A model generated the notes under the pieces. It was given only the letters and a program-made list of their open reading frames with translations. It had not been told where the DNA came from and did not search any database. The position numbers were made by a program, and so were the translations under genes. From assembly GCA_043813365.1 (NCBI GenBank), contig JBDRLB010000042.1:1-39098 (forward strand): a stretch of 39,098 nt of DNA, written 5' to 3'. Shown here piece after piece: positions 5,901-37,369 of this stretch; within the stretch, counting starts at the first letter, position 1, and each line of letters begins with the position of its first letter. Source of the DNA: Candidatus Micrarchaeota archaeon. Its GTDB lineage: Archaea > Micrarchaeota > Micrarchaeia > Norongarragalinales > SBBD01.

Positions 5901-8900
5901 AGGGGGATGAGCCATATTGCGAGTACGACTGATAGGGAGAGGCGCCATATTGGGAATATGGGGAATAGGCGGATGAGCCGTATTGGGAATAGCCCGAATA
6001 TTGATTAGAATATCCGCTTCCATAATAACCGCCCTGCTGCTGGAAGTAAAGCATGCAAGCTGGGTTGCTCCCGTATATCCGCTGGAGGAGGCGGTTGTAA
6101 ACATCATTCCCGGTGAAATCAGCAACAACGTGGATGCGCTGCTCTTCCGGGCCGCAGAACTCAGTCGTGATCCCGAACTCCGCATCCTGTATGGAGCAGC
6201 CGATTACCGGCTCTTCAAAAACACCGAGGGAATAGAAATTGTCGAACCTGCGCGTGTAGGGATCAAGGTAGAAAGTGACCGGGTTGGGGAGAACGGGAAG
6301 GTTGTTGTAGCGGATAATTTTTGTGCTCGCATCCAGAGTGGGTGCGTCTGGCGCCGTCACGATGATGGAGAATGTGCGCAATTGCTGGTCGGATGTGCGG
6401 ATCTGCAGCTTTCCGCGCTGGCGGAAAGTTTTGTTGAGGGATTCAGCGGAATAGTCTGCAGAAATATGTACCAGGCTGCCGGTGCAATCCGCAGTTACGA
6501 GGAAATCATCCTTTGCCTGGATGTCGCAGAAGCTGATTTCGCCGATGTTGCCGCCACTATACATCACATCCGCGAAGCCGTTTTCGTCAAGGCGGAGGTT
6601 TATTACGGAAGGAAGGGCAGCGAAATCATTGCTCTCCAGATCGCTAACCCTGCTGGATTTCACATTGACCCTCACGGGAATGCTCGTCCTGATTGTTGAT
6701 CTGGAAGTAATTGCCTGCTCGAAAATTAGCTGGCAGTTTGTTGTTGCGCTAACATCCGGAAGCACGCCAATTTTGATTTCTGAGGAGCCCTTGAAATTCT
6801 GGACGTAGTTGGGGAATGCATAAAGCACGGGGGTTTCCTGGTTGCCGCAGGTTGAAATTATTGAGAGGTCGCTCTTGTCTGTGAAGGAGGAAGTGATTGA
6901 AATGCTCCGTTCTTCGATTGTGCTGCTGGAATCGCCAATGAATTGCAGTGATTGGGGCGAAACGCGCAGCGCATCATCAGTTATTTCCACGTTAAGGTCG
7001 CATCTGTCGATTGTGCGGTATTTCGGATGGAACACTTTCAGCCCGATTTTGCCGGTTGTCGCCGGCGTGAGGGAAAATTGGTAAATGCCATCCAATCCCA
7101 TGCCGCGCTCGTTGGTTCCTGCAAGCTGCAAATCTTCCGCGGAAAGGGGTGCACGGTCGCAATCATAAAGCATCACGATTGCATCGGTGATCGGATTGTC
7201 TGAGGAATCGTAAACGGAAACTCTCGGTCGTTTCTCCTCGCCGACATTGAACTGCGATGGGGAAATTGCCGCCCTCATGATGTTCTCCCCTGAAATGCGG
7301 AGGTTCTGCCTGTAGGAATAGACATGGTTTTCGGATTTGAAAGCTAGGAGCAATTCGGTTGTGCCCGCCTTGATCGCCTTCAGCTTTATTGACCCGGAAG
7401 TCCTGATATTGGAAGGTATTGCAATGTCCGCGCTTTGCTCCCCTGCCTGCTGCGTGACGGATGGCTCATCAGCAAGGCCCGTGCCGGCTGTCGCGGATGC
7501 GAGTTCGAGGTTGGAATTGATCACCGACAGAGAAATGATCGGTTCCTCCGAAAGCACTTCGAAATTAACGGTGAATTCAGTTCCCAGCGGAATGTCGGTG
7601 CTGCTTGCCTTGAGAGTTATTCTCCTGCAGAAGGAGCCGTCGGCATTGCAAATAAGTGGTGAATCAGTTACCTTAATCTGCACTTCCTTGTTTCCGTTCG
7701 CACACATTCTTCTTACGAGGTCGAGGGGCTCTACAGAATCTTCCACCAGGAGATCCTCGGATTCGGGGTAGCTTATCACAACTCCCTTCTTCTCGGAATA
7801 TGCCTTGTAGAAGAACGTGACTGGAGAGGATGCAGTTGCATCATGCGATACTGAGAATTTTATGGCGATCTCCTTCGTCCCTGCAGTGCCTCGGGGGAAA
7901 ACCAAATCAACGGAATTGATGGTGCCGTTGCCATCCGTTGTAGAATAGCACGTGTCTGGGGAGTATCTTGAGGAGGTGAAAAGGGATTGCGCTGCAGAAT
8001 CGATTTCCAATAGTTTCAATATCCCGTTTGTTGGCGAGATGTGTGCATGGAAACCCGCGATTTCCGCTGCTGACGGGAATGTGACTATGAATTTCGCATA
8101 GTATGTTTCGCCGTTCCCTAGCTCCTTCACTTCCTCCCCGGATTTGAAAATGCCGATGAACGCTGCCGAAACAGATGTGGCATCCTTTTCTGAAACAAGG
8201 TTAAGCTGCATCTGCCGGAATTCCTTTGGCGAAAGGATGTAATGGTCGGACGTGGTCTTCAAATATTTCGGGGAAAGCCCTACAAGGTAGAATTCGATGT
8301 TCGAAGGGATGTTGCTTATTGCGCACCTCCACTCCGCAATTTCGCATTCCCCAAGCATGTCGCCCGCATCCGTCTGCGCAGTCACCTTCCCAGCTGTGAG
8401 TTTCGCTTTCGTTATCGCATCCACGAGCACAACATCCATGTTTGCAGGAGCGGAAACAAGGTTGATGAGGAGGTTTTCAACTCCTTCGGAAGAAATTATT
8501 GCACTCCTGCCGACGCTTGCCTCCCTAGAGGCGGTTGCCAGCAATTTATATGAAGAACCCTCGATTTCCCGCGGAATTCTGAAAGTTACCTTCCCGTCGA
8601 AATCGGTGCTGCCCGCAGGCATTCCCAGGAAGTAGCCGTCGGACTTGAAAAGCGCGACCTCCGCAGACTCGGAAGGCTCGCCATCCTCCAGTACGGTGAT
8701 TTCCAGATCGGCAGAATTCTCATCATTCTGCTTCTCGAGCATGATTTTCTGCTGCTGTGTGGAGGCGGAAGCGGTGATTGATGCCGGCAGGTAGCCGGAT
8801 GCATAAGCCGTAATATAATACTCATTGCCCTGCTTCACCAGGATGCTTGCCTTCCCGTCTGCACTGGAAATTAATTTTTTCGGCAGCTGCTTGCCCTCGA

Positions 8901-9999
8901 GCTCGAACAGGTATATTTGTGCTCCGGAAATTGTGCCCGTTTGTGAAGAGATCAGCAGATCGATGTAATCGCCGTCAACCTTTTCGGTCAGTTCAATGGA
9001 TTCCTCCAGCACGTCGCCGGAAGAGGAGAGCTCGAATTGCTCGGTTTCAGCTGAGAGGTATTTTGCGCTCTCCTTGACCTCGATCGCATATCCCTTCCCT
9101 ATCAAAACATCCTCGAACAGCACCCTTCCAACTGCATCGCTGCTTGCTGCCTGGAGCGTCCTGAAGGAAATGGCATCAAGTAGTAAAACGCGAATGGCTT
9201 CGAGCTGTGCGCCGCTTCTTGAGGTGAGCGTCAGCCTTATTTTACCGTATTTGGAGTTTTCGGGTTCCCCCCCTGCCTTGTCCTTCGCATTCGCTTCCTC
9301 ATTTGACTCAAGCTGGGCGAAGTATACTTCCTTTTCGATGTCGGATTTCAGCAAGCTGATCGGCTTTTCCTTGTAATTGCTTTCGGAAATTATTAGAGTG
9401 GCATGCTCGGGCACATCAGAAAATGTGAAAGTTGCAAGGCCCGAATAGTCGGAAACGCGGGTGAGGCTTTTGCCGTCATCGAATTGCAGCCTCACAGCCG
9501 CGCTTGCTATGTAAAGCCCGCCCACATCGGTCACATATACGTTGAAGAGCTTGTCGTTCTTCCCTGCATCAAGTATTTGCGAGAGCTTAATTTCCTTTGT
9601 TGAAAGGGTGATTGATTCGGATACATCGGCATAAATCATATTCGGATCCGAAATCTCAACCCGGAGGTCCGCATTGGCCGGAACCTCCTTAAACGTCACT
9701 ATTCCATCGGCGGAACTTTCCCCGGTGCCAAGTTCGCGATCGCCGTCGTAAAGCACAACGGCCATATTGGGGATGGGGTTTCCATCGGAGGTTTTGATTG
9801 CCAAGGAAAGGGTCTGGGGCCTTGCAGTAAGTTGCGGCAGCAGGAAATATGCAGCAAGAATGATGATGAGAATCAGCAATGCGGGGAAAATCACCCTCGG
9901 GGAAGGCACTCCTTTCTCTTCCATTTGGGCCATGAGATCCTCATAGCCGTCCTTCAGCTTCTCGAGGAACGAGCCCCCTGCTGCGCCTTCGGAGTCCAT
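2959..9999 (-). CDS. giant (2346 aa) N-terminally membrane-anchored surface protein with beta-sandwich repeats, Y/S/Q/G-rich loop and M23 metallopeptidase domain
   Basis: One TM helix (VIFPALLILIIILAAYFLL). Repeated carboxypeptidase-regulatory/Cna-B-like units (G-PI--A-V-L...D--G-V-F). M23 motifs HQGID (H1900, D1904), YGNTV, YTLYGHL, IVGVMGNS and HLH (H1993, H1995). Confidence 0.9.
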   Translation of the reverse strand: MDSEGAAGGSFLEKLKDGYEDLMAQMEEKGVPSPRVIFPALLILIIILAAYFLLPQLTARPQTLSLAIKTSDGNPIPNMAVVLYDGDRELGTGESSADGIVTFKEVPANADLRVEISDPNMIYADVSESITLSTKEIKLSQILDAGKNDKLFNVYVTDVGGLYIASAAVRLQFDDGKSLTRVSDYSGLATFTFSDVPEHATLIISESNYKEKPISLLKSDIEKEVYFAQLESNEEANAKDKAGGEPENSKYGKIRLTLTSRSGAQLEAIRVLLLDAISFRTLQAASSDAVGRVLFEDVLIGKGYAIEVKESAKYLSAETEQFELSSSGDVLEESIELTEKVDGDYIDLLISSQTGTISGAQIYLFELEGKQLPKKLISSADGKASILVKQGNEYYITAYASGYLPASITASASTQQQKIMLEKQNDENSADLEITVLEDGEPSESAEVALFKSDGYFLGMPAGSTDFDGKVTFRIPREIEGSSYKLLATASREASVGRSAIISSEGVENLLINLVSAPANMDVVLVDAITKAKLTAGKVTAQTDAGDMLGECEIAEWRCAISNIPSNIEFYLVGLSPKYLKTTSDHYILSPKEFRQMQLNLVSEKDATSVSAAFIGIFKSGEEVKELGNGETYYAKFIVTFPSAAEIAGFHAHISPTNGILKLLEIDSAAQSLFTSSRYSPDTCYSTTDGNGTINSVDLVFPRGTAGTKEIAIKFSVSHDATASSPVTFFYKAYSEKKGVVISYPESEDLLVEDSVEPLDLVRRMCANGNKEVQIKVTDSPLICNADGSFCRRITLKASSTDIPLGTEFTVNFEVLSEEPIISLSVINSNLELASATAGTGLADEPSVTQQAGEQSADIAIPSNIRTSGSIKLKAIKAGTTELLLAFKSENHVYSYRQNLRISGENIMRAAISPSQFNVGEEKRPRVSVYDSSDNPITDAIVMLYDCDRAPLSAEDLQLAGTNERGMGLDGIYQFSLTPATTGKIGLKVFHPKYRTIDRCDLNVEITDDALRVSPQSLQFIGDSSSTIEERSISITSSFTDKSDLSIISTCGNQETPVLYAFPNYVQNFKGSSEIKIGVLPDVSATTNCQLIFEQAITSRSTIRTSIPVRVNVKSSRVSDLESNDFAALPSVINLRLDENGFADVMYSGGNIGEISFCDIQAKDDFLVTADCTGSLVHISADYSAESLNKTFRQRGKLQIRTSDQQLRTFSIIVTAPDAPTLDASTKIIRYNNLPVLPNPVTFYLDPYTRRFDNFYSLGVFEEPVIGCSIQDAEFGITTEFCGPEEQRIHVVADFTGNDVYNRLLQRIYGSNPACMLYFQQQGGYYGSGYSNQYSGYSQYGSSAYSPYSQYGASPYQSYSQYGSSPYQQYSYSSIDQTGFGSYPVPQYRNGYVGYQNYPQMNSLQSPYPYPQPYYGQNNLMYDYSLSQIYANPTIDSGYSWDRCNAASFDVPLLITLRSGRTRTVPIRIMARGMPRTQQQRFQTSNNEEWESQEIQLDPYTLTRYAAYDVPLGQQSNLGFPQCKVATDSSFFKQVTENTQISAGQQYVPSKIGKLAPAFKMDKCSESSGVFKVEGFADGSGIAASSRSASGALNDKSDLYLDIYYPAGVHKLAPIILKLGEVSEYTLEPISSNLQFIVTDAKPSFEAEFKDTNSIFTEGTCAISGFENAAADTGLLGDFRSKVMIQAGFEKEKYSLGDDGTYAKAEKDAQNAVSLATVPETAGTISCKAKKSDVSAKLWVASFRGSYEYDLDGLAFSTSISPEMGKLMADAGKSIACEVTSQSFSNSFKNNAQGNAKCTLENGAIQASVDYGSILTGEEKGSIEKNGLKDTLTLKLSSVTDNPKSRLKQKQISRPLADIRLIMNKKGVEEAYAIIDNYRYSLSTPLDSVCFLADRQNRQHQGIDIVGTPDADGKARVYAPFAGEVVSARMREDCYGNTVIMRHSVAGEPDFYTLYGHLAEINVRIGDKLSKGSIVGVMGNSKGKDCNEEIGLHLHFQTCSQYDVSADFLSECFHPCAKGICPDAPNGITPYGCNVCSNTNPLGGPDDSEFCRNRNVAPDASATIPQAPDVTRETCEKLIEGSDKTIGIVLNLDDSKKLRVADICINPQAGIAAGQREFALNEKIPIRYSVPADYTRAAGARDYLVIYLQNKDTDKVLDPEKIEISISGGAHEIAGPASPATYLLIAGVNDAGQVLWDGDEGKPFGSLTFGVFDPEDMKTNLFSITSCKLAGFSTWIDSGVEFKLKFNKPLAEADRQIEAAGKKESITFGVKTYCLNDPDPTDSRNNEKIWGNQLDLLKQGKEISLPLYYNWEQEDVDKCKDKIYVKLISYPVNYLPEEQSSLVPCS
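5893..5991 (-). repeat. 3 x 33-bp tandem repeat encoding YSQYG[S/A]S[A/P]Yxx
   Basis: YSQYGSSAYSP / YSQYGASPYQS / YSQYGSSPYQQ inside the low-complexity region of the 2346-aa protein. Confidence 0.85.
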
Positions 10000-11000: not shown

Positions 11001-14000
11001 TCATACCGGTTTGCACGCCGAGCCGGTCTTGTAGGCGAAAACAGCAGGGTATTTTGTAAGGTCGTAAGGCCCATAGCACGCGTTCTTTGATATTCTAAGT
11101 AGTGCCCATGACAACGAGGACGATCTTGCGGACTTAAACAGGGTCCAGACTGTCCCGATATCCAGGGCGTCAGCTTGTGAGTCCGGATATTGGTAGAAAT
11201 TATTCCCGGTGGGGTAGGAATTTTTCACTCCCGCATAGTGCTTGGTGAAGCCGTCAGGCACAATTGGCCATTCCCAGCTCAAGCAATAATCGCGGTAGGT
11301 GGCTGCGGGGAATATTTCATTGGCAATGTAGGCTCCGCGGGAGGCCCTTGCAGTGATGGGGATGAAGAGGTTGCAAGCGACTTGAGGGCCGCAATAATCC
11401 TGCCCGGGACCTACTGCGTTCGGATAGTTCTCGGAGATATAGAGCGGGCTGATCTTCAATGGCCTCTGGGTTCCGGGAATCTCGAAATCCACGCCGTTGG
11501 TCGTTTCCGTCTGCAGGAGATAATTGCCGAGCCGTACTTTGCACTGGGTCGGCAGGCTTGAAATGCCATCAATGGCATTGTCCTCTATGAGGTTGAAATC
11601 CGCGGTGTCAGTCATCTTATTGAAAACGATGTTTGCGCTTAAGGGCATCACTGCAGAAAATTTGAAGGAGGTCGACTCCGGGTCTGTGGCAAAGTACTTG
11701 TAAGGTTCGGAAAGGCTTTCGGTTCCCGAAGGTGCAATCTCAACTGCATAAATTGCGGATTGATTCTGCCATTCGTACGCGAAGCCCGCAAGCTCCTCAG
11801 TTGCCTTTGTCCCGTCGGGCCGGCATTGGCTGCAAAGCTCCGGATCGCAATAATCTCCCGGGTTCGCAGATCTTGGCCCGCATATTTCGACGCACGAGTC
11901 GCCTCCTGCAGGGCAGGCGGTTGTGTTCCCGGAAGCATCGGTATAATTCTCCCGGGGCTCGATTATCGCACAGTAGTCCGCCTTGTCGGATATCCCGCAG
12001 ATGTTGGTCTCATCCGGATCCTCAGGAGTGCAGCGCTGGTCACATATATCAATTCTCGCCTGGTCGGTTGTTTCCGGCTCGCCGTATTCGAGCCCGTATG
12101 TGTCATAGCAGAACAGGCATGCGACATCCAGCTCATTGACTATTCTCGTGACTTTCGCCCAGTCCTTCTCGGATCCCCTGCATACTGCCGGATCAAGAGT
12201 GTCCTGCGTGTTGGGATTTTGTTTAAGGCAGTAGATGGTGTTTGCAAAGCTGCGCTTGAATGCCGTAGCCTTGGCAACCTGCTGCGCTTTTTTCTGGAAG
12301 GCTCCAATTAATTCCTTTGCGTAAAGGCGCTCGTAATCCTTATTGAAATCGGCGCCGCAAATGCTTTCGCATGCCGACCTGATGGCGTTTGAGGCTTGGG
12401 TGCAATCCACTGCCGCCTTTGCCCATAATTCCTGGTCAATTTCATCGCATTTTTCATTGCTTATGCAGTCTTCAAAGTCACGATCCAAGTTCCCAAAGCA
12501 GGCATCGCGTTGGGAATAGCAGTTATAGTCAATGCCGCACCAGTATTGGCTGCACGAGCGTTGATCGCGGTGCAATTGGCCCCCGCACTCATACCAACAT
12601 ACAGAATACTCGCCAGCGCTTTCTTTCTTTTGGATGCACGCATTGTAATTTAGGTCGAATTCAAAGTCGCATTTTTCATTGCACTCGGCCATATCGGCCC
12701 TTATTGACGGAAGGTCGACGGATTGCTCCGCTTCGGAGATGAGCATCTGCGTCAGCGATTTGGAAGATGGCTCATTGGAGGAGATGACTGCAAATGGCAC
12801 GGGGTTGTAGTCGAAGGAGGCCTTGTCCGGGTAGAAGGCAACGCTAGGTGCATTCGTGCTGTTCCACGTGAGCATATCGGCTGTTTTTCCGCTGCTGCCG
12901 AAGATGCTCGCATAGCCGTTGTCCCTTGCATAAACGCCATTCCTTTGCGAATAGGTGCCGACAGTGATTTTCGGCTGGGAAAGCTGTTCATCCATGCCCG
13001 GCATGAAGCGGTTGTTCAGTGCGTAAACAAGCTTCAGGCTGGGGCTTTCCGTGTCCTGCCCGTAATATGATTTGGGCTTGACGAGGGGATCCTTGTAGGG
13101 GGTGACGGCGAAATCATAGGCGGTTATTCCGCTGGAGACGAGGGTGAAGTTCGCTACGGTTATGTTGATTATTTTCTTCGGGGAAGTATCCGAGGCGAGG
13201 TAGACGCGCATTGCGATTTTCGCTCCCGGAACGGAATTCCCAATTGGGGAAAGCGGGCATCCATTACGGGTGGGCCAATACCTCAAAGCGGAACCTCCAG
13301 GAGTGTAATCGTAATCGAAGCAGCTGTTGTATTTGTTGAAATCCGTGTCGTCGCCAAATCGGTAGCCGAGGAAGGCCATCCGGGATTCGCCATATAGCCC
13401 GGTGTCGTTCAGGGGTATCGCATCATACGGGAAAATGCTATCCACCTGGAAGATTATGTTCGTGCATGAGGATTCCACAACCGGATCCGGTATCCCCTCG
13501 AAGAGGGTGCGCTTTAGCTCCAGTTTATTGCATGCATACATATTGGGCAGCTCCGAAGGGTAGGTTGGAAGCGTATTGTACCTCACCATCACATATGGCT
13601 GCAATAAGATCGGCTGCATGCTGGAGTTGTGGGTATAATTAAGGGTGAGCAGCAAATTGCCGCTGGGTTCGATCGGAGTGAATGTGAGGATTGGGGAAAG
13701 GTCGGATTGGGAGCTGATAGTTGCGGTTATTACTGCAGAATTGGGATCCAAATTGGTGATGCGGCTGCCGATTTGGAGGGCATAAGGCCTGAGTGACGAA
13801 ATGTCGGAAATGGTTATTGTGAGGGTGCCGGGTGTGAAGCGGTACATGTTGTCCGTAATTGTGAACCTGATTTGCAGCTTCCCTTCGGTGCAGTTTGTGC
13901 AGGGCTTGAGCGAATGCACGATAAAGCCCGAGCCGCTGGTGTTGGTGGTGCAGAAAAGCGTTGATGGAGGGCCAGTATAGCCCCTTTTGCACTGGTATTG

Positions 14001-17000
14001 CGAGAATTCCACCTTCACGCATGCTTCGTTGTTCTTGTCGCATAATCGGTTACCGTAAACGCATTTGTTGTCTGTCAATGAGCATACATTATCTCCGTTG
14101 CATTTAGGGTAGCTGTCACAGCATGCGGACCCCTCGTTCCCGCAAGCACGGCATATTCCAAGGCTGCTCGCCTGCTGCAGTTCGCATACTCCCCCAATAC
14201 ATAATTTCCCGGGCAAAGTCAGGCTGCAAAGCTCTCCCCTCCCGCCGAATTCGCACATCGGCAAATTCGAGATGCAGTCCCTGCAAACTGGGAAACCTTT
14301 GGAGCCAGCGCCTCCCAAATTGCCCGCGTCACAGTACTGGTCGAATTTGCACGAGGGGCAGATTACCTCGGCAGTGCATTGCGAATAGGGAACGCATTGC
14401 CCTCTGGAGGAGGCATCATTGCAGCAAACTGTTGCGCCGGTGCATCTCAATGCCGGGGAGGAGGAGCCGCACACTTCGGCAGTTTTGCATGTCCGGGAGT
14501 TTCCGGAAATTACGCATTGCAAATCCGGAAGGCATGCTGTTGCGGTGTTTGCATCGGAATAATCGCAGCATTCCTGATTAATGCCTCCGCACGGGATGCA
14601 AATGTTGGAAGAAGAGCATGTGAGCCCGGAATCGCATTCGTTCGCCAGCCCCGAGCAGCAGAATGCATTTTCCTTTCCGCAGATGGATCCCCTCGCATCC
14701 TTGCAGATGCCATTTGCGATGTTAGAGGAGGAGTCGCAGTATTTCTCATCCGGAGGGGAGCAGGCGGGGGAGCATTCGCGGATGTCAGCAGGATGGCACG
14801 AAAGTACGCATGCCTTGATGCCCGTTCCGGAATTGAGGCAGCATACGGAATTGTCTGAGCATTGGTAATTCGTCGAGCCGCAGCTCGTGGGGTATGTACA
14901 AAAACCTATTGAGTCCGATTCCGACTTCTGGCACTTCCATCCCTGGTTGCAGGAATCTATTGCACCGCCTTCAATACGGGAGATGCAGCATGCCTCCCCG
15001 AAACTGCCGCATGCGTTCAGAACATATGTTTTATTGTAAGTGGCAGCAGAACACCAGCCGGTTGCATTGCCCCCTGCAAATCCCAACTTATTGTCCACGG
15101 GATCGCGGATGAATTCAGCGTTTGAAACCGAATAGGAACGGTACTTCACAGCCAGCTTGTCGGATGCGATCCTGGTTGTAATGCGGAATTTCAGCACCAG
15201 AACGGAGGAGCCCCTAAAGCCGTATTCCGTTTCAAGCCAGGAGGCCGCATCATATGCGCCCGTAAGGGAATTGTAGTCGGTTCTGCATGTTTCCAGGTTG
15301 CTGAGGCTTCTTGCAGCCCGCAATGCAATTGGTTGGTAGCCCCCATATGAGTAATTCGTGAAATACGCTATTTCCGCACCGCCTGCGCCCTCCAGGGAGA
15401 GGAACATGCCATTCCGTTCGGATGATTGCTTGCTGTAGAGGTTGATCTTGAGCAAATAGCTCTGGTCGGTTGTGAGCTCCGTTACGGCGCCGTCATTCAT
15501 GTCCGTGATTCCGGCAAGGATGATTTCGGAAATGATTTTTGAATCCAGCCTGTAGAGCAATGCGGGTATGCGGGTGGAGTTGTTGGGGTTCGCTTTGACA
15601 TTCCCGGTCGCATTCTGATAGTTTTTCGAGTAGACAACATAGCTGAATTCCTTGTCGGCCCTCGCATCAATGGTGCATGAGCCGGCTGTTGCAGTGCAGC
15701 TCTTGTAAAGCGAATTGTTGCGTTCGTTCTTATAGTAGAGGAATGCATCGAATTGCGAAATAGCGGTCGTGTTGTTCTCGCGGTCATTTGCGGAAAATTC
15801 GATTGTCCCTGTCGGGGCGTAAAGCGTGATGTTGAGCTCAACTGCGGAGCCGGAAAGGGTTTTGGTGGTTTCCCCTGCATTGGGCTGCTTCACCGCAATA
15901 ATCCTGAATTCGCCCTTCGGGAAATTCCTGAAAATCGCTTTCCCTTGCGCATTGGTTTTTTGGTCGTATGGCGGCACCTGGTATTCATCGGGATCGAAAA
16001 ATGCAATTGTTGCATCCCTGATTTTCAAGCCATCCTCATTTGCAACATTGATCGTTAGATTGAGGGAATTGCTTGCATCCGCCTTTATCATCGTAATTGT
16101 TTTCGCAACACCGCCTGCGAATTTCATCGTCCTTCCCGGAAGGTAGCCGTCCTTGAATGCGGTGGCGTAATAGATGCGGTTGTCAAATGCCTCTGAACGC
16201 AATTCCGAGGAGGCTCTTTCAACTTTCAGGAGTGTGAAATTCATTTCGGAGAGCCCCTCCCAGAGCCGGATTTCAGAAACAAGGGCAGAATTCCTCTCAT
16301 CAACAACCTTTATGGTGGCAATGGAGCTGTTGACAGTCGAAGCGGATTTCTTCAGCCGCATTGGAAGCGTTGTTTTGCCTGCGACAAGCGTCTTTTCCTT
16401 CACTGCGGGCTCGTAGCCATCCGCAGTTGCCTTCACCCTCAGCTTTGCGCCTACTTTGAAATCATCGGTATCGTACATTCCATAAGTGGTGCTGGCGGTT
16501 TTAAGCAATTCGCCGCTTGCCGCATCGAAGATGAGGAGATCCGCCTCGAGGGCCGAGCCGTCCGCATCGTCCTTCACGGTGATTTCGAGCTGCGAATTAT
16601 CGGAAGGCTGGGGGGTGGGGGATGCTTCCCTTTTCTTCAATATGACTTTTTTCTGCTTCCCTTTTTCGGGAAGGTAGGTGATTTTCGGGCTTGTCTCGTA
16701 CCCGGAAAGCGAGACCTGGATCGTTACATCCGTGCCCGAAGGCGATTGGAGCGCTGCGATTCCGTTGGAACCGGTGGCTGCGGTGTCCGCAACTTCGCCA
16801 TCCTTTCCATTATAAGAGTAAGCAACTGTCGCGCCCCCGAGCGGTGCATTGGAAAAATCAACTACGGCAACTTCGAAACCCGCTCCGCCGCTCCCGGGAG
16901 TGAGTATTATTTTCAATAAGGGCGCGCTGCCTATTTTGAACGATCGCTCCTCATCCCCAAAGCCCTGCTTGCTCACGACGATTTTTGCATCCTTCCCTTT

Positions 17001-17345
17001 CGGAAGGTTGTTGAACTGCGCGGCGCCGTCCTTTGTTTCGATTGTGCGTGCAAGTGTTCCGGAGGTCAGCGTAACGGAAGCTCCATTGATGTTCTCTCCC
17101 TCGGAAACCACGATCACTTTCAGGGATGTTGAGGGGCTGTTGAGCAGGAGGAATGCCGCACCACTTATCATCAGGAGGAAAAGGAAAATTACTATCGGGA
17201 AGGAAGGTATCCCGCGGTCCTCTATGGGGTTGATGAATGATTCATAGATGGGCAATTTCAGCTGCTTCTCGATGTAATCGCATGCGGAATAGTATCCGTC
17301 CTCGATTTTTTCGTAAAGCTCGTTTAAGGACTCCTGCAGCGTCAT
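11001..17345 (-). CDS. giant (2114 aa) N-terminally membrane-anchored Cys-rich surface protein, paralog of the 2346-aa protein
   Basis: N-terminal IEDGYY...IEDRGIPSFP followed by a TM helix (IVIFLFLLMISGAAFLLL). Carboxypeptidase-regulatory-like repeats (GASV-L...G-A-F...V-K-G[F/Y]). CGxxxxxCC repeats at aa ~779-1102 and further Cys-rich blocks toward the C-terminus. Confidence 0.9.
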   Translation of the reverse strand: MTLQESLNELYEKIEDGYYSACDYIEKQLKLPIYESFINPIEDRGIPSFPIVIFLFLLMISGAAFLLLNSPSTSLKVIVVSEGENINGASVTLTSGTLARTIETKDGAAQFNNLPKGKDAKIVVSKQGFGDEERSFKIGSAPLLKIILTPGSGGAGFEVAVVDFSNAPLGGATVAYSYNGKDGEVADTAATGSNGIAALQSPSGTDVTIQVSLSGYETSPKITYLPEKGKQKKVILKKREASPTPQPSDNSQLEITVKDDADGSALEADLLIFDAASGELLKTASTTYGMYDTDDFKVGAKLRVKATADGYEPAVKEKTLVAGKTTLPMRLKKSASTVNSSIATIKVVDERNSALVSEIRLWEGLSEMNFTLLKVERASSELRSEAFDNRIYYATAFKDGYLPGRTMKFAGGVAKTITMIKADASNSLNLTINVANEDGLKIRDATIAFFDPDEYQVPPYDQKTNAQGKAIFRNFPKGEFRIIAVKQPNAGETTKTLSGSAVELNITLYAPTGTIEFSANDRENNTTAISQFDAFLYYKNERNNSLYKSCTATAGSCTIDARADKEFSYVVYSKNYQNATGNVKANPNNSTRIPALLYRLDSKIISEIILAGITDMNDGAVTELTTDQSYLLKINLYSKQSSERNGMFLSLEGAGGAEIAYFTNYSYGGYQPIALRAARSLSNLETCRTDYNSLTGAYDAASWLETEYGFRGSSVLVLKFRITTRIASDKLAVKYRSYSVSNAEFIRDPVDNKLGFAGGNATGWCSAATYNKTYVLNACGSFGEACCISRIEGGAIDSCNQGWKCQKSESDSIGFCTYPTSCGSTNYQCSDNSVCCLNSGTGIKACVLSCHPADIRECSPACSPPDEKYCDSSSNIANGICKDARGSICGKENAFCCSGLANECDSGLTCSSSNICIPCGGINQECCDYSDANTATACLPDLQCVISGNSRTCKTAEVCGSSSPALRCTGATVCCNDASSRGQCVPYSQCTAEVICPSCKFDQYCDAGNLGGAGSKGFPVCRDCISNLPMCEFGGRGELCSLTLPGKLCIGGVCELQQASSLGICRACGNEGSACCDSYPKCNGDNVCSLTDNKCVYGNRLCDKNNEACVKVEFSQYQCKRGYTGPPSTLFCTTNTSGSGFIVHSLKPCTNCTEGKLQIRFTITDNMYRFTPGTLTITISDISSLRPYALQIGSRITNLDPNSAVITATISSQSDLSPILTFTPIEPSGNLLLTLNYTHNSSMQPILLQPYVMVRYNTLPTYPSELPNMYACNKLELKRTLFEGIPDPVVESSCTNIIFQVDSIFPYDAIPLNDTGLYGESRMAFLGYRFGDDTDFNKYNSCFDYDYTPGGSALRYWPTRNGCPLSPIGNSVPGAKIAMRVYLASDTSPKKIINITVANFTLVSSGITAYDFAVTPYKDPLVKPKSYYGQDTESPSLKLVYALNNRFMPGMDEQLSQPKITVGTYSQRNGVYARDNGYASIFGSSGKTADMLTWNSTNAPSVAFYPDKASFDYNPVPFAVISSNEPSSKSLTQMLISEAEQSVDLPSIRADMAECNEKCDFEFDLNYNACIQKKESAGEYSVCWYECGGQLHRDQRSCSQYWCGIDYNCYSQRDACFGNLDRDFEDCISNEKCDEIDQELWAKAAVDCTQASNAIRSACESICGADFNKDYERLYAKELIGAFQKKAQQVAKATAFKRSFANTIYCLKQNPNTQDTLDPAVCRGSEKDWAKVTRIVNELDVACLFCYDTYGLEYGEPETTDQARIDICDQRCTPEDPDETNICGISDKADYCAIIEPRENYTDASGNTTACPAGGDSCVEICGPRSANPGDYCDPELCSQCRPDGTKATEELAGFAYEWQNQSAIYAVEIAPSGTESLSEPYKYFATDPESTSFKFSAVMPLSANIVFNKMTDTADFNLIEDNAIDGISSLPTQCKVRLGNYLLQTETTNGVDFEIPGTQRPLKISPLYISENYPNAVGPGQDYCGPQVACNLFIPITARASRGAYIANEIFPAATYRDYCLSWEWPIVPDGFTKHYAGVKNSYPTGNNFYQYPDSQADALDIGTVWTLFKSARSSSLSWALLRISKNACYGPYDLTKYPAVFAYKTGSACKPV

Positions 17346-28805: not shown

Positions 28806-28911
28806 AGCGGGGTAGGGTAGCCAGGAGTGCCCGCTGGGCTCATAACCCGGAGAGGGACCAGCTTGCTGATCTCTCGGGGAAAGACCGGTGGTTCAAATCC
28901 ACCCCCCGCTA
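28806..28911 (+). tRNA. initiator tRNA-Met(CAT) with a 31-nt non-canonical intron (best fit 43/44, 28851-28881)
   Basis: AGCGGGG TA GGGT AGCCAGGAGT GCCC G CTGGG CT-CAT-AA CCCGG [intron] AGACC GGTGG TTCAAAT CCACC CCCCGCT A. The A1-U72 pair and three G-C anticodon-stem pairs mark it as initiator. TTTATAA box at 28767-28773. Confidence 0.93.
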
Positions 28912-34019: not shown

Positions 34020-34718
34020 TCACTTGTTGATCTTCTTCCTCACGTCATTTATGAGGGATTTTGCCTCATCCTGGCCGCCGAAGCCGAACGCTATTCCTAC
34101 AGCAATTGCAACCCCGTATGCCAGTGCCTGCACCATAGTAATGAACGTCTCCTTCAGGATGCCGGTATTCACGCCGACAAGCTGCAGGCCCATGACAAGC
34201 CCGAAGAACATCACTACAAACTTGGCCCCCTTGGCAACGATCCCGACCCAGCGCGATTTCATGTCGAGCTCCTTGACCTTGGCCTTCACCAATTCGCCGA
34301 AGAGCGCCGCAACCACGAAGATGATCGCCGCACCAACGACTACCGGGGCATAGATAAGCAGCATGCTCATGAATTCCGTTAGAGTGCCAAGCTGCAGCTT
34401 CGAAATGGATGCCTGGAAGAAAACCAGCACTATATAGTACTTGACTATTTTCACTAGGAAATTTGAGACTTTGAACGTCCCCAATGCATCCGCCATCTTG
34501 TTCTGGGTGAGGAACTTCTCAAAATTCGAGCCCTCGAGAGCGCGCTTGAAAATCCTTGAAATCACGAGCGCAATTACATACCCCACAAGGAATATCAGCA
34601 GAGCCGCAATGAAGTTCGGCACGAACTCCGACATCGCCGAAATGAAATTCCTCACAACATCCGAAACGGCACCCGACAATGCGTCCGGTGAATCAAATGC
34701 ACTAGCTATGTCCGCCAT
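34020..34718 (-). CDS. conserved TM-helix repeat membrane protein (CmpX / small MscS-related type)
   Basis: Duplicated F-P---AAL-I--VG motif (FVPNFIAALLIFLVG; YAPVVVGAAIIFVVA) and C-terminal AVGIAFGFGGQDEAK. Confidence 0.85.
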   Translation of the reverse strand: MADIASAFDSPDALSGAVSDVVRNFISAMSEFVPNFIAALLIFLVGYVIALVISRIFKRALEGSNFEKFLTQNKMADALGTFKVSNFLVKIVKYYIVLVFFQASISKLQLGTLTEFMSMLLIYAPVVVGAAIIFVVAALFGELVKAKVKELDMKSRWVGIVAKGAKFVVMFFGLVMGLQLVGVNTGILKETFITMVQALAYGVAIAVGIAFGFGGQDEAKSLINDVRKKINK

Positions 34719-34849
34719 AAATCAACCCACCTCTCAAAGGGCTAAACAAACCCCCTATTTAAAACTTCTGATGGAAATGCTGGGTCTTAAGTGCAAGGCC
34801 ATACTAGCCTATTCTACCCCTTTAATTACTTTTGCGAATTAATTATTCC

Positions 34850-34960
34850 AGATGATGATAACTTCTTGACTGAGCGAAAGCTGTGACGAATGACGGACGG
34901 ACTGACGCTACAAAAGTTAGTAGACGGCGCTAGCGATGACGACAGACTGAACGTCTGACG
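34850..34960 (+). ncRNA. box C/D 2'-O-methylation guide sRNA, apparently with three guide elements
   Basis: ATGATGA(34852)-11 nt-CTGA(34870)-GCGAAAGC hairpin-GTGACGA(34883)-12 nt-CTGA(34902)-hairpin-ATGACGA(34936)-12 nt-CTGA(34955). TTTAATTA box at 34821-34828; T-run at 34986-34990. Guide 2 is antisense to the 16S 1399-1408 consensus with one mismatch. Confidence 0.8.
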
Positions 34961-35050
34961 CCACTCGCAGCCTACCTCGGCCCGCTTTTTCCAATGCACT
35001 TTTTCGTGCATCCAAGCAGGCGCGAGTGAATAAATAGTTTAGTGCAGAAT

Positions 35051-35068
35051 TAGACACGAAAGTGTCTA
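35051..35068. terminator. perfect hairpin TAGACAC-GAAA-GTGTCTA between convergent units
   Basis: 7-bp stem with a GNRA loop, 36 nt beyond the stop of the uvrA-like gene; the terminator role is inferred only. Confidence 0.35.
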
Positions 35069-35104: not shown

Positions 35105-37369
35105 TTAACCAGCCGGCGCTTTAAGGACTCTCTTCAAATATTCCCCCGTATAGCTGCCTTTGCAATCGAAAATCTGTTCGGGAGTGCCTTCGAAAAGGAT
35201 TTCTCCTCCTTTGCGGCCGCCTTCTGGGCCCAGGTCGATTATCCAGTCCGCGTGTTTTATCACGTCCAGGTTGTGCTCTATTACGACCACAGTATTGTTG
35301 TTCTGGACGAGCGATTTGATTATATGGAGCAGTTTCTCTATGTCCGCTGGATGCAGGCCGGTGGTAGGCTCGTCCATGACGTAGATTCTCCCCTTTTTGT
35401 GGAGTTCTGACGCCAGCTTTATCCTCTGCGCCTCCCCCCCGGAGAGTGTGCTCAGGGGTTGCCCTATCTCCAGATAATCCAGTCCTACGTCGCAGTAAAC
35501 CCCCAGTTTTCTCCGTATTTCGGGGTCCTCGAAGAAATCTCTTGCCTCGAGAATCGTCATGCACAGCACGTCATGGATGTTTTTTCCTTTGTATTGCAGT
35601 TCCAGGACTTCATCAGTATACCTTTTTCCGCTGCATTCGTCGCACACCACCCGGACATCATCCAAGAAGCTCATTTCGTAGCTTATAGTCCCCAATCCGT
35701 TGCATTTCGGGCAGGCGCCCTCGGAATTGAAGCTGAACAGCGCAGGCGGCTTCCCTGTTGATTTGGCGAACTCCTTCCGAATCAGGTCAAAAACCCCAAT
35801 GTAAGTTGCAGGATTAGACCTCGAGTTTTTGCCAACAGGCGACTGGTCAATGACTATCGAGTCCGGGTTCTCCTTCAGGAACGTGTCGTTTATCAGGCTG
35901 CTCTTGCCGGAGCCGGCAACTCCGGTGATGCAGGTCAGGACTCCTTTTGGAATCTTGGTCGAGACATTCTTCAAATTATGGAGAGTTGCGTTGCGGATTT
36001 CAATGAACTCCCTCCATTCCTTCCGTTTCATGTGCCCATTACTGCGAGCATTGAGGAATTTACCGGTCAGCCCGCCCGATTTCAGGAGCCCCTCCACCGT
36101 CCCGGCAAAGACTACCTCGCCGCCGAGGCTCCCGGCGCGGGGGCCGATGTCCACCACGTAATCGGCGGAGAGGATGACGCTCGGGTCGTGCTCCACCACG
36201 AAAACACTGTTACCCTTGTCCCTGAGCTTCCCGAGCATCTCGATGAGCCTGTTTATGTCCCTTGGGTGGAGCCCGATTGAAGGCTCGTCCAATACGTACA
36301 TCATGTTCACGAGGTCGCAGTCCAGCTGCCGGGCCATCTTTACCCGCTGACTCTCCCCTCCGGACAGAGTCACTACGGCGCGGTTCAGCGAGAGGTAGCC
36401 GACCCCGATTTCAATCAAGTAAGCGAGAATCTGTTGCATCTTGCGGACTATGGGCTTTGCGATGTCCCCCTCCACGGTTTCCAGGAATGCGGAAAGCTCC
36501 GTCAGCTCCATGTTAACGAGTTCAGGTATGGTCTTGCCGTTGAGCCTGACGCTTCTTGCCTTCTCGTTTATTCTAGAGCCACCACAAGCGTCGCAGTCCG
36601 AGTAGATGAAGTATTTTGTGTATGCGTCCTTTCTCTCTTCGGAGAGCTGCTCCTTGGCCTTGTTGACATGGAGCCTCTCCAGCTTGCTGACGATTCCCTC
36701 ATAATTCTTAGTATATGTTCCCCCGCCGTGCTTCTTCACGATAGGTATGGCCTTAGCGTAGAGGAAGTCGTTAAGCTCCTTCTCCGAGAAGTCCCTCAGC
36801 TTCTTGTCGACTTCAAAAAGTTCGATGCCTACAATCTCCCTCCAGTTCCAGCCGCCCACCCTGTAGTCTGGGTGGTTCACAGCGCCCTCGCGTATGGTTT
36901 TTTCCTTGTCAATGAGCCCCTCCACGTCAATTCGTATGCGTTTCCCGAGCCCCTTGCAGGCTTCACACATGCCCATCGGGTGGTTAAAACCGAAAGCGAA
37001 AGAGGGACCGATGAACGTATCCCCGCACCTTGAGAAGAGGAGCCTCAGGTACGTGTAGAGTTCAGTTGCAGTCCCAACGGTGCTCCTCAGGGTAACGCCC
37101 ATCCTCTTCTGGTCAATAACAATTGCGGTCGAGATGTTCCGTATCTCGTCTACATCGGGCTTGGAGAGCTTGGGCATCCTGCTCCTTGCAAAAGAGGAGA
37201 AGGTCTCGATGAGCTGCCTCTGTGCCTCCGTATAAACGGTATCAAATACGAGAGAAGATTTCCCGGAGCCGGATATTCCAGTGAAAACAACTACCCGGTT
37301 CCTAGGGATTTCAAGCGAAATATTCTTGAGATTGTGGGTTCGTGCCCCCCTGATGATGATGTTTTCCAT
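35105..37369 (-). CDS. UvrA-family ABC ATPase, short class II (UvrA2/DrrC-like), 754 aa
   Basis: [10 protein letters not shown], Walker A GISGSGKS and GVAGSGKS, two LSGGE signatures, LDEPSIGLH and MDEPTTGLH, CxxC pairs. About 190 aa shorter than canonical UvrA, with no UvrB-binding insert. Confidence 0.92.

What the first reader, a model, noticed from the sequence alone, without database searches (positions are those of the whole stretch)
34821..34990. C/D-box guide RNA with three guide cassettes instead of two
Seen: three C-like/D pairs, each spaced by an 11-12 nt guide (TAACTTCTTGA, ATGACGGACGGA, CAGACTGAACGT) and linked by hairpins (GC-GAAA-GC; CTAC-AAAAGTTA-GTAG), under one TATA box and ending before a T-run. 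Established: archaeal C/D sRNAs are ~50-60 nt with two guides (C-D', C'-D). Inference: a ~110-nt three-guide RNA, or a fused/polycistronic precursor, compacting rRNA methylation guides in a reduced genome. I could not assign targets for guides 1 and 3 from this window.
Basis: partly seen in the sequence, partly recalled or inferred. Interest (0 to 1): 0.75.

Follow-up and report, generated by a model that had tools for sequence, protein, structure and literature searches.

The report
Two-guide C/D sRNA with duplicated tail
This is an ordinary two-guide archaeal methylation-guide RNA gene aimed at the ribosome's decoding centre, followed by a decayed partial copy of its own rear half that looks like a third guide but shows no sign of working as one.

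Summary
The motifs are real. Three C-like/CTGA pairs sit at 34852-34873, 34883-34905 and 34936-34958, behind a TATA box (34821-34828) and before a T5 run (34986-34990).

Only the first two behave like a gene. They form a canonical dual-guide box C/D sRNA. A pattern for its C' box, D guide and D box is found in 49 of 67 genomes of the order. The D guide pairs with 16S rRNA 1399-1408, with a conserved A.C mismatch opposite C1402. Earlier scan notes on other DNA (e1-5474977, e1-2888630) describe what appears to be the same family.

The third cassette occurs in this genome only:
- It is absent from all 22 relatives' loci and all 19 metagenome loci.
- The three-cassette signature is found in 1 of 67 order genomes.
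- It is a tandem copy, offset 53 nt, of the sRNA's own loop-C'-guide-D-flank segment (38 nt, 71% identical).
- Its "guide" matches rRNA no better than random 12-mers.
- Its "guide" also base-pairs with its own D box.

Fibrillarin, Nop5 and L7Ae genes are present. No RNA data exist, so transcript length is untested.

Verdict: an ordinary sRNA with a species-specific duplication relic in its 3' trailer. I put a working third guide at about 7%.

The parts
34821..34828 (+). TATA box (TTTAATTA) of the sRNA promoter, 23 nt upstream of the C box
   Evidence: The extended motif (CCCC)TTTAATTACTTTTGCGAAT is conserved upstream of the orthologous sRNA in L007, L008 and L011. It recurs in front of other loci in same-genus genomes.
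34852..34905 (+). Canonical dual-guide box C/D sRNA, from C box to D box; the mature RNA is probably about 34849-34907
   Evidence: The full C-D'-C'-D pattern hits here, one of 3 such hits in the genome. Rfam gives weak sR2, sR1 and sR12 hits to 34848-34908, all below gathering score. Orthologues are seen in 22 relatives' loci. The C'-guide-D pattern is found in 49 of 67 order genomes.
34852..34858 (+). C box ATGATGA
34859..34869 (+). D' guide (guide 1), 11 nt, an orphan guide
   Evidence: It varies even among same-genus orthologues. Its best rRNA matches in relatives are 8-9 of 11, which I take to be chance level (the null was run for 12-mers only). In the own genome the only 11/11 site is its own antisense.
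34870..34873 (+). D' box CTGA
34874..34882 (+). D'-C' loop GCGAAAGCT (a 2-bp stem with a GAAA loop)
   Evidence: Relatives keep a small stem-loop here with different sequence: GCTCACGC, GCCGCAAGGC, GCTTCGGC, GGCGCAAGCC.
34883..34889 (+). C' box GTGACGA
34890..34901 (+). D guide (guide 2), which pairs with 16S rRNA 1399-1408 and places an A.C mismatch at N+5 (C1402)
   Evidence: The core GACGGACGG is conserved order-wide. Four same-genus 16S genes read CACACACCGCCCGTCAAG. The variants GATGGGCGG and GACAGGCGG place a G opposite C1402.
34902..34905 (+). D box CTGA
34906..34935 (+). 30-nt spacer. It holds the weak hairpin CTAC/GTAG (34908-11 with 34920-23). It also has a possible 5-bp stem CGCTA/TAGCG (34906-10 with 34931-35), flush with the D box and the third C-like box.
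   Evidence: Read directly from the sequence. The MFE fold pairs 34906-34926 as a small hairpin. The region is not alignable with same-genus orthologues beyond a few bases.
34927..34964 (+). Diverged tandem copy (offset 53 nt) of 34874-34911, which is loop + C' + D guide + D box + 6-nt flank
   Evidence: the repeat finder family D1: 38 nt, 71% identity. Local alignment: 21 of 28 identical, score 21. This score is reached by 5 of 2000 shuffles and by 9 of 5000 random genome segments.
34936..34958 (+). The 'third cassette': ATGACGA + CAGACTGAACGT + CTGA. The 'guide' is self-complementary with its D box (CAGAC 34943-47 pairs with GTCTG 34953-57).
   Evidence: Coordinates are. The hairpin appears in both folds. 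No counterpart exists in relatives. No target was found.
34986..34990 (+). First T5 run after the D box; the likely end of the primary transcript (inferred)

Best explanation
The locus encodes one ordinary dual-guide box C/D sRNA of about 55-60 nt (C box 34852 to D box 34905). It is transcribed from its own TATA promoter.

With L7Ae, Nop5 and fibrillarin, its D guide binds the decoding-centre strand of 16S rRNA (E. coli 1399-1408). The N+5 rule points at C1402, but the guide places an A opposite that C. It may therefore act mainly as a binding or chaperone guide, or as a weak methylation guide. The D' guide is a fast-evolving orphan.

The 'third cassette' is a species-specific, diverged tandem duplicate of the sRNA's own rear segment: loop, C' box, D guide, D box and flank. 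It lies in the 3' trailer before the first oligo-T run. It is probably transcribed with the sRNA and trimmed away, or persists only as a hairpin. It does not guide a third methylation.

- Shown: the motifs, the conservation pattern, the duplication, the lack of a target and the presence of the protein genes.
- Inferred: the transcript ends, the trimming, and the binding or methylation at C1402.
For: - **Order-wide family.** Cassettes 1 and 2 belong to it. All 22 relatives' loci align through the D box and diverge straight after it. The C'-guide-D pattern is found in 49 of 67 genomes and 30 of 35 genera.
- **D guide target.** The guide gives 9 Watson-Crick pairs out of 10 with 16S CCGCCCGUCA in four same-genus 16S genes. 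Rare guide variants restore the G opposite C1402. Cm1402 was measured in Nanoarchaeum equitans (PMC5389701, passages read).
- **Third cassette not conserved.**
  - 0 of 22 relatives' loci have even a loose cassette within 150 nt after the D box.
  - The same holds for 0 of 19 metagenome loci.
  - A combined metagenome pattern gave 0 matches.
  - The order-wide three-cassette pattern hit 1 of 67 genomes.
- **Duplication.** 34927-34964 is 71% identical to 34874-34911 at a 53-nt offset. By shuffling, p is about 0.0025.
- **No target for guide 3.** Its best score in relatives' rRNA operons is 9.5, against a null mean of 9.6. The only 11/12 site in the own genome lies antisense inside a 201-aa ORF.
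- **Self-pairing.** The 'guide' pairs with its own D box within an extended hairpin, 34929-34971.
- **Protein partners.** Fibrillarin, Nop5 and L7Ae genes are present.
- **Precedent.** sRNA duplications and remnants next to sRNA genes are described in Pyrobaculum (PMC6009581, passages read).
Against: - The boxes of the copy are intact (TGACGA 6 of 6, CTGA 4 of 4), while 6 of its 12 guide positions changed. A module evolving a new guide would look like this. But the unit was noticed because its boxes are intact, so the pattern is biased.
- CGCTA (34906-10) and TAGCG (34931-35) could form a 5-bp stem flush with the D box and the third C box. An internal k-turn motif would need such a stem (read).
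- There is no T5 between the D box and 34986, so a longer RNA is possible.
- The organism's own 23S and most of its 16S are not assembled. The target search for guides 1 and 3 therefore used relatives' rRNA only.
- tRNA detection was poor: ARAGORN found 10 tRNAs.
- By simple scoring, the D guide's 16S match (9 of 12) is itself no better than random 12-mers reach. The target assignment rests on conservation and on the guide variants.
Confidence: 0.75

Rival explanations
1. This is a genuine three-guide sRNA. The C box pairs with the last D box (34955) as a terminal k-turn. D'/C' and D/third-C form two internal k-turn motifs, the second closed by the stem CGCUA/UAGCG. The result is a ring of three 11-12-nt guides on one RNA of about 110 nt.
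For: - Box order and 11/12/12-nt spacings are correct.
- A 5-bp stem sits flush with the D box and the third C box.
- Family members elsewhere tolerate long, stem-containing D'-C' spacers of 19-35 nt, as in L016, L025 and L031.
- The boxes were kept while the guide diverged.
- There is no terminator before 34986.
Against: - The architecture is unique to one genome: 1 of 67, 0 of 22, 0 of 19.
- Guide 3 has no target above chance.
- Guide 3 folds back on its own D box.
- The D/third-C motif would leave a 2-nt rather than a 3-nt bulge, and the terminal stem would be 1 bp (read).
- From recall rather than any test here: known sRNPs are built on Nop5 dimers bridging two k-turn motifs, so a third motif has no partner.
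Confidence: 0.07
2. This is a dicistronic precursor. The third unit is released as a separate small k-turn hairpin RNA (GCG-AUGACGA...CUGA-CGC). That RNA binds L7Ae, or simply stabilises or terminates the transcript's 3' end, without guiding methylation.
For: - Complementary GCG/CGC flanks surround the third C and D boxes (listing).
- The region 34905-35035 folds better than shuffles (z = -3.35; 1 of 200 shuffles does as well).
- Clusters of two or three sRNA genes with polycistronic transcription are reported in archaea (PMC7994747, passages read).
- L7Ae binds many non-sRNA k-turns (PMC5539422, abstract only).
Against: - It is not conserved in any relative.
- It is not a complete sRNA gene: no C'/D' pair follows it before the T5 run.
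- In the MFE fold the boxes are buried in an ordinary imperfect hairpin rather than a k-turn.
- There are no expression data.
Confidence: 0.1
3. It is pure coincidence: a chance C-like heptamer and a CTGA 12 nt apart, unrelated to the sRNA.
For: - Single loose cassettes occur by chance. There are 25 RTGAYGA-N10-13-CTGA hits in the genome, against 6-13 in simulations.
- By my reading of their surroundings, most of the 25 lie inside coding sequence.
- The first-stage scan looked at very many windows.
Against: - With the exact 12-nt spacing there is no other hit outside sRNA-like loci (my reading of the flanks) in 2.67 Mb of strand.
- Similarity to cassette 2 extends beyond the boxes: by my count, 11 of 18 non-box positions. 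A 38-nt repeat at 71% identity is reported, and 5 of 2000 shuffles reach the alignment score.
Confidence: 0.08

Closest known systems
Archaeal dual-guide box C/D sRNAs (L7Ae-Nop5-fibrillarin methylation guides; Rfam sR2 RF01139, sR1 RF01152 and sR12 RF01147 are the nearest models)
   Same: It has C, D', C' and D boxes in order, 11- and 12-nt guides, and a short D'-C' loop. It has its own promoter, and the protein partners are encoded in the genome. The D guide is complementary to conserved rRNA.
   Different: It scores below every Rfam gathering threshold; the best is 22.8 bits against 42. There is almost no terminal stem. The guide places an A.C mismatch exactly at N+5. A partial tandem copy follows the gene.
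Archaeal guides aimed at the 16S decoding centre, and eukaryotic guides for the C1402 equivalent. Cm1402 was measured in Nanoarchaeum equitans, and Neq sR13 is implicated in 3'-end 16S maturation (PMC5389701, passages read). The yeast snR70 and human SNORD43 equivalents are named from recall and from earlier scan notes.
   Same: The same universally conserved target strand (1399-1408), with the same N+5 position.
   Different: In most of the 49 order genomes with a pattern match, the guide carries a non-Watson-Crick position inside the duplex. Dennis et al. predict that a mismatch at the modification site still allows binding but not methylation; they saw this in 16 of 262 double guides (PMC4644070, passages read).
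sRNA gene duplications, remnants and transposed half-sRNAs in Pyrobaculum (Lui et al. 2018, PMC6009581, passages read)
   Same: Part of an sRNA gene was copied locally, leaving a remnant beside the parent gene. The guide diverged after duplication. The resulting guide is an orphan.
   Different: Here the copy is in tandem, 53 nt downstream on the same strand, and probably inside the same transcript. The organism is a DPANN archaeon with few sRNAs; my strict pattern found only 3 full C-D'-C'-D hits.
Clusters of two or three C/D sRNA genes with polycistronic transcription (Tripp et al. 2017, as summarised in PMC7994747, passages read)
   Same: More than two C/D-type units lie on one probable transcript.
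   Different: Those clusters consist of complete sRNA genes with four boxes each. Here the second unit has one C-like and one D box only.

Membership tests
Archaeal box C/D sRNA (dual guide) | C box (RUGAUGA) near the 5' end and D box (CUGA) near the 3' end | tested here: met
   ATGATGA at 34852-58 and CTGA at 34902-05.
Archaeal box C/D sRNA (dual guide) | Internal D' and C' boxes separated by a short loop | tested here: met
   CTGA at 34870-73, the 9-nt loop GCGAAAGCT, and GTGACGA at 34883-89. Relatives keep a small stem-loop here with a different sequence.
Archaeal box C/D sRNA (dual guide) | Guide spacers of about 12 nt between C and D' and between C' and D | tested here: met
   11 nt and 12 nt.
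Archaeal box C/D sRNA (dual guide) | At least one guide with 9 bp or more of complementarity to rRNA or tRNA, and a Watson-Crick pair at N+5 | tested here: inconclusive
   The D guide gives 9 Watson-Crick pairs out of 10 with 16S 1399-1408 of four same-genus relatives, but the N+5 pair is A.C. The variants in G012/G018 and in G021/G025/G036/G037 have G there. The own 16S 3' domain is not assembled.
Archaeal box C/D sRNA (dual guide) | Terminal stem closing the C/D k-turn | tested here: not met
   At most 1 bp is possible between CCAG (5') and CGCU (3'). The same-genus orthologue L009 can form about 5 bp. From recall: many archaeal sRNAs have very short stems or none, so this feature is not strictly defining.
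Archaeal box C/D sRNA (dual guide) | L7Ae, Nop5 and fibrillarin encoded by the genome | tested here: met
   PF01269 at 249.8 bits (C46), PF01798 at 190.7 bits (C72) and PF01248 at 93.2 bits (C37).
Archaeal box C/D sRNA (dual guide) | Expressed as a stable RNA of about 50-70 nt | not testable with these tools
   No RNA run was listed. Only short DNA contigs could be laid.
   0 of 22 loci, 0 of 19 metagenome loci, 1 of 67 order genomes and 0 matches for the combined metagenome pattern.
   The best score in relatives' rRNA operons is 9.5, against a random mean of 9.6. The own genome holds one 11/12 site, antisense in an ORF. Caveat: the own 23S and most of the own 16S are missing.
   A 5-bp stem CGCUA/UAGCG lies next to the D box and the third C box, but it would leave a 2-nt bulge. 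The terminal stem would be 1 bp. A competing hairpin spans 34929-34971.
Tandem or polycistronic sRNA gene cluster | A second complete sRNA gene (C, D', C', D) on the same transcript | tested here: not met
   Only one C-like and one D box follow the first gene, with no further boxes before the T5 run.

The most novel reading that the evidence does not exclude
This could be a snapshot of guide birth. A tandem duplication of the C'-guide-D half has added a third, box-intact module to a decoding-centre sRNA. The transcript could then fold into a ring of three k-turn motifs: C with the last D, D' with C', and D with the new C through the stem CGCUA/UAGCG. If so, it would carry a third, newly diverged guide on one RNA of about 110 nt. 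That architecture is not described for archaeal sRNPs in the passages I read.
Probability: 0.07. Interest if true: 0.75.

Novelty: new member of a known kind. Interest (0 to 1): 0.25.

Why it matters
As it stands, the finding adds one more copy of an unannotated but ordinary C/D sRNA family of tiny DPANN (Micrarchaeota) archaea. Earlier scan notes on other DNA describe what appears to be the same family.

Two modest points of interest remain:
- **How guides duplicate.** The locus shows a methylation-guide module being copied in tandem next to its parent. This is one route by which new or orphan guides could arise.
- **A deliberate-looking imperfection.** In most matched genomes of the order, the family's D guide keeps one non-Watson-Crick position inside its duplex with the 16S decoding centre. 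This suggests selection for binding without strong or permanent pairing, or without methylation.

If the long RNA were real and bound three L7Ae molecules, it would challenge the two-fold symmetric model of the sRNP. Nothing found here requires that.

Tried and rejected
- **Rfam.** In gathering mode the window holds only a 16S fragment and one tRNA. In E-value mode there are only sub-threshold C/D hits, the best to 34848-34908. The third unit gets 11-12-bit hits with E of 1.9-3.9.
- **Expression.** No RNA holder was listed. The laid DNA contigs were three short pieces. One of them (X3, 34907-35057) is identical to the window, with no variants to analyse.
- **Genome-contig scan with a 15-mer of the D guide.** Of the 80 listed rows, 78 carry bacterial or unclassified titles, which I take as chance matches. 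I inspected only the two archaeal-titled rows (L066, L080); neither shows the sRNA. The scan was wasted.
- **A perfect target for the D guide elsewhere.** CCGTCCGTCA occurs in the five same-genus genomes only at the sRNA's own antisense plus 0-2 other sites per genome. That is comparable to the reversed-pattern control. In the own genome, CCGTCCGTC has one other site, on C5.
- **Integrative-element (att-site) origin of the partial copies.** There is no integrase in the window. There is none beside the partial copies in G008 or G001, which lie after ordinary metabolic genes.
- **Repeat or mobile-element origin of 34905-35030.** There is no other copy in the own genome.
- **The 61-aa minus-strand ORF at 34826-35011.** It overlaps the conserved sRNA in antisense, and the region is not conserved in relatives. 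I treated it as spurious without further testing.
- **TIGR-Tas tandem guide arrays (PMC12045711).** I saw only the search listing and the start of the abstract. I considered them as an analogy only and did not test them. They are phage and bacterial systems with their own Tas protein.
- **ARAGORN.** It found no tRNA in the window and only 10 in the genome. tRNA targets were therefore covered mainly by the whole-genome scan allowing at most 1 mismatch.
- **Rfam on three other own-genome loci (L213, L215, L216).** Nothing at E of 0.1 or below.

Full report
**1. Observation**

- TATA-like TTTAATTA at 34821-34828.
- C box ATGATGA (34852-58), 11-nt spacer TAACTTCTTGA, and D' CTGA (34870-73).
- Loop GCGAAAGCT (34874-82).
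- C' GTGACGA (34883-89), 12-nt spacer ATGACGGACGGA, and D CTGA (34902-05).
- A 30-nt spacer containing CTAC-AAAAGTTA-GTAG.
- A third C-like box ATGACGA (34936-42), 12-nt spacer CAGACTGAACGT, and CTGA (34955-58).
- The first T5 run at 34986-34990.

The flanking genes both lie on the minus strand. They are an MscS-like channel gene (34020-34718) and a UvrA-like ABC ATPase gene (35105-37369). The element therefore sits in a 386-nt intergenic gap.

**2. Organism and machinery**

- The window is contig C42 of a 1.34-Mb, 78-contig archaeal assembly that is 88.6% complete.
- Earlier notes of this scan call it a Micrarchaeota (DPANN) archaeon. I did not test that.
- Fibrillarin (249.8 bits), Nop5 (190.7 bits) and L7Ae (93.2 bits) are encoded.
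- The assembly has no 23S. Its only 16S is the 436-nt 5' fragment at the window's start.

**3. Cassettes 1 and 2 are a real, conserved dual-guide sRNA**

- Rfam gives only sub-threshold C/D hits, the best being sR2 at 22.8 bits (E = 0.0073) to 34848-34907.
- A BLAST of 34780-35010 against 59 relatives found orthologues that cover the promoter and both cassettes and stop at about 34905-34913.
- In 22 loci that I aligned by eye and with MAFFT, the C'-guide-D segment is nearly invariant. The D' guide differs even within the genus, and similarity ends right after the D box.
- A pattern for C' + GACGGACGG + N + CTGA, allowing up to 2 mismatches, is found in 49 of 67 genomes of the order, in 30 of 35 genera. 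The reversed-pattern control gave 3 hits in 2 of the 67 genomes.
- The promoter motif (CCCC)TTTAATTACTTTTGCGAAT is shared with the orthologues. It also occurs in front of other loci in same-genus genomes. This supports a transcription start 1-3 nt before the C box, which is an inference.

**4. Target of the D guide**

- Four same-genus 16S genes read CACACACCGCCCGTCAAG.
- The guide 5'-AUGACGGACGGA-3' pairs with CCGCCCGUCA (E. coli 1399-1408; numbering from recall). It forms 9 Watson-Crick pairs and one A.C mismatch.
- That mismatch falls exactly at the fifth position upstream of the D box, opposite C1402.
- By simple counting this match (9 of 12) is not better than random 12-mers achieve in an rRNA operon, where the mean best score is 9.6.
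- The assignment therefore rests on three things:
  - order-wide conservation of the guide;
  - rare variants that change the guide yet keep the same register. GATGGGCGG in G012 and G018 restores G opposite C1402 and makes a G.U at 1405. GACAGGCGG in G021, G025, G036 and G037 restores G opposite C1402 and moves the mismatch to C1404;
  - the absence of a perfect complement elsewhere.
- Cm1402 has been measured in Nanoarchaeum equitans (PMC5389701, passages read).
- Dennis et al. report guide-target duplexes with a mismatch at the modification site in 16 of 262 double guides. They predict binding without methylation (PMC4644070, passages read).
- Earlier scan notes describe what appears to be this Micrarchaeal family, including its 'deliberate-looking mismatch' (e1-5474977, e1-2888630). 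My result agrees and was obtained independently on this DNA.

**5. The D' guide (guide 1) is an orphan**

- Its best matches in relatives' rRNA operons are 8-9 of 11 and are not shared between relatives.
- In the own genome the only 11/11 site is its own antisense.

**6. The third cassette**

(a) It is not conserved.
- None of 22 relatives' loci has a strict (RTGAYGA-N10-13-CTGA) or loose (NTGANGA-N9-14-YTGA) cassette within 150 nt after the D box.
- None of 19 metagenome loci carrying C' + guide + D has one within 130 nt. Two of these (L184, L194) look like simple repeats, and one (L183) lacks a clear C box.
- A metagenome pattern requiring the D guide plus a downstream cassette gave 0 matches.
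- An order-wide pattern for D'-C'-12-D-spacer-C-12-D hit 1 of 67 genomes, the window itself. That pattern demands 12-nt guides and exact boxes, so variants could be missed.

(b) It is a copy.
- The repeat finder reports 34927-34964 as a 38-nt, 71%-identical direct repeat of 34874-34911, at a 53-nt offset. The copied segment is the sRNA's D'-C' loop, C' box, D guide, D box and 6-nt flank.
- A local alignment gives TGACGAATGACGGACGGACTGACGCTAC against TGACGACAGACTGAACGTCTGACGCCAC, 21 of 28 identical, score 21. The score is reached by 5 of 2000 shuffles and by 9 of 5000 random genome segments.
- Six of the seven differences lie in the 12 guide positions.

(c) It has no target.
- Its best score in three relatives' rRNA operons is 9.5, against a null mean of 9.6.
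- The own genome holds one 11/12 site, antisense within a 201-aa ORF on C46.

(d) Its 'guide' is self-complementary with its D box.
- CAGAC (34943-47) pairs with GUCUG (34953-57). Both folds place it in an extended imperfect hairpin at 34929-34971.
- The region 34905-35035 has z = -3.35. The stretch 34848-34992, taken as one RNA, has z = -1.48.

(e) It is not a random coincidence either.
- RTGAYGA-N12-CTGA occurs 6 times in the genome. By my reading of their surroundings, five of these are in sRNA-like genes.
- With N10-13 there are 25 hits, against 6-13 in three simulations.

**7.

- The boxes of the copy are intact.
- CGCUA (34906-10) and UAGCG (34931-35) could form a 5-bp stem flush with the D box and the third C box. 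An internal k-turn motif would need such a stem.
- Family members elsewhere have long, stem-containing D'-C' spacers (L016, L025, L031).
- No T5 lies between the D box and 34986, so the third unit is probably co-transcribed.

Points against them:
- The D/third-C motif would leave a 2-nt bulge.
- The terminal stem would be 1 bp.
- The stem partly derives from the copied loop (GCGAAAGC to GCGCTAGC).
- Detection of the unit is biased towards intact boxes.

I therefore keep a working third guide at about 7%. I put a separately released k-turn or terminator hairpin at about 10%.

**8. Related observation in relatives**

- 5'-truncated copies of the same sRNA's rear part (D guide + D box, with or without 3' flank) occur at further loci. 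These are G008 contigs C82, C60, C88 and C52, and G001 contig C93.
- Where flanking genes could be read (C88, C82, C52), each copy lies just downstream of an unrelated metabolic gene. I saw no integrase in the flanks I scanned.
- The G008:C52 and G001:C93 copies carry the genus-type 3' flank for about 100 nt.
- The rear half of this gene therefore seems prone to being copied or rearranged. That fits the origin proposed for the window's third unit.
- Pyrobaculum shows comparable sRNA duplications, remnants and transposed halves (PMC6009581, passages read).
- Clusters of two or three complete sRNA genes with polycistronic transcription are known (PMC7994747, passages read). The window's second unit is not a complete gene.

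**9. Verdict**

The motifs are real, and the third one is a duplication product.
It is a C/D sRNA gene, and the third unit is probably on the primary transcript. But there is no evidence for a third functional guide or for 'compaction'.
- This is a new member of a known kind, of low to moderate interest (0.25).
- Open points: transcript ends (no RNA data), the organism's own 23S and 16S 3' domain, and supplements of the cited papers, which I did not open.

Noticed in passing
window 34890-34901; relatives: The family's D guide keeps one non-Watson-Crick position inside its duplex with 16S 1399-1407. Most genomes have GACGGACGG, with A opposite C1402. Four have GACAGGCGG, with A opposite C1404. 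Two have GATGGGCGG, with a G.U at G1405. No listed genome has the fully complementary GACGGGCGG. This looks like selection against perfect pairing with the decoding centre.
   Followed up: partly
G008:C82, C60, C88, C52 and G001:C93 (loci L197-L201, L208-L212): 5'-truncated extra copies of this sRNA's D guide + D box occur here. Two of them carry about 100 nt of the genus-type 3' flank. Where flanks could be read, each sits just after an unrelated metabolic gene (amine oxidase, 3-hydroxyacyl-CoA dehydrogenase, 2-hydroxyacid dehydrogenase). No integrase was seen nearby.
   Followed up: partly
window 35028-35067: A TATA-like GAATAAATAG box and the hairpin AGACAC-GAAA-GTGTCT lie about 125 nt downstream of the D box. 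This pair is conserved at the equivalent place in L008, L011 and L192, with compensatory changes in the stem (A-T to G-C in L008). It could be a second small-RNA promoter with a hairpin, or a terminator for the convergent UvrA-like gene.
   Followed up: no
window 34813-34845; G001-G005 loci L041-L058: The extended promoter motif CCCCTTTAATTACTTTTGCGAAT recurs at many loci in same-genus genomes. In L051 it lies upstream of a tRNA-like sequence, and in L050 upstream of an ORF. It looks like a strong genus-wide BRE/TATA consensus.
   Followed up: partly
own genome C19:23894-23948 (+), C58:1614-1668 (-), C20:28899 (-): Other C/D sRNA candidates exist in the genome. C19 and C58 are near-identical paralogues sharing both guides (CACTGTCCCAG[A/C] and [T/A]CGAGGTAGCTA). 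C20 has a 19-nt D'-C' spacer. Only 3 loci match a strict four-box pattern, so this genome seems poor in sRNAs. Rfam did not recognise the C19 sRNA locus at E of 0.1 or below. The C58 sRNA strand position was not correctly sampled by L216, so it was not tested.
   Followed up: partly
own genome C19:32375-32398 (+): A single ATGACGA-N13-CTGA cassette sits inside a sequence with tRNA-like arms, near a contig end. It might be a C/D unit in a tRNA intron. Rfam found nothing there.
   Followed up: partly
window 28806-28911 (+): Rfam finds a 106-nt tRNA (47.6 bits), presumably with an intron, which ARAGORN misses. ARAGORN finds only 10 tRNAs in the whole genome.
   Followed up: no
window 1-436 (-): The contig starts inside a 16S rRNA gene (its 5' 385 model positions). 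The rest of the rRNA operon is not assembled. The whole-genome search tool did not report even this fragment.
   Followed up: no
G002:C5:33732-36981, G004:C4:6590-10210, G005:C7:291095-294238: The 23S genes of same-genus relatives span 3144-3621 nt, against a 2987-position model. G003's 23S is in several pieces. This suggests insertions or introns of differing size.
   Followed up: no
window 2959-9999 (-) and 11001-17345 (-): Two giant ORFs of 2346 aa and 2114 aa carry CarboxypepD_reg and Ig-like domains. The first also has a Peptidase_M23 domain. They are probably surface proteins of the kind noted before in this genome.
   Followed up: no
own genome C46:29137-29787 and C72:27725-28393: The fibrillarin and Nop5 genes lie on different contigs. 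From recall, they are adjacent in many archaea.
   Followed up: no
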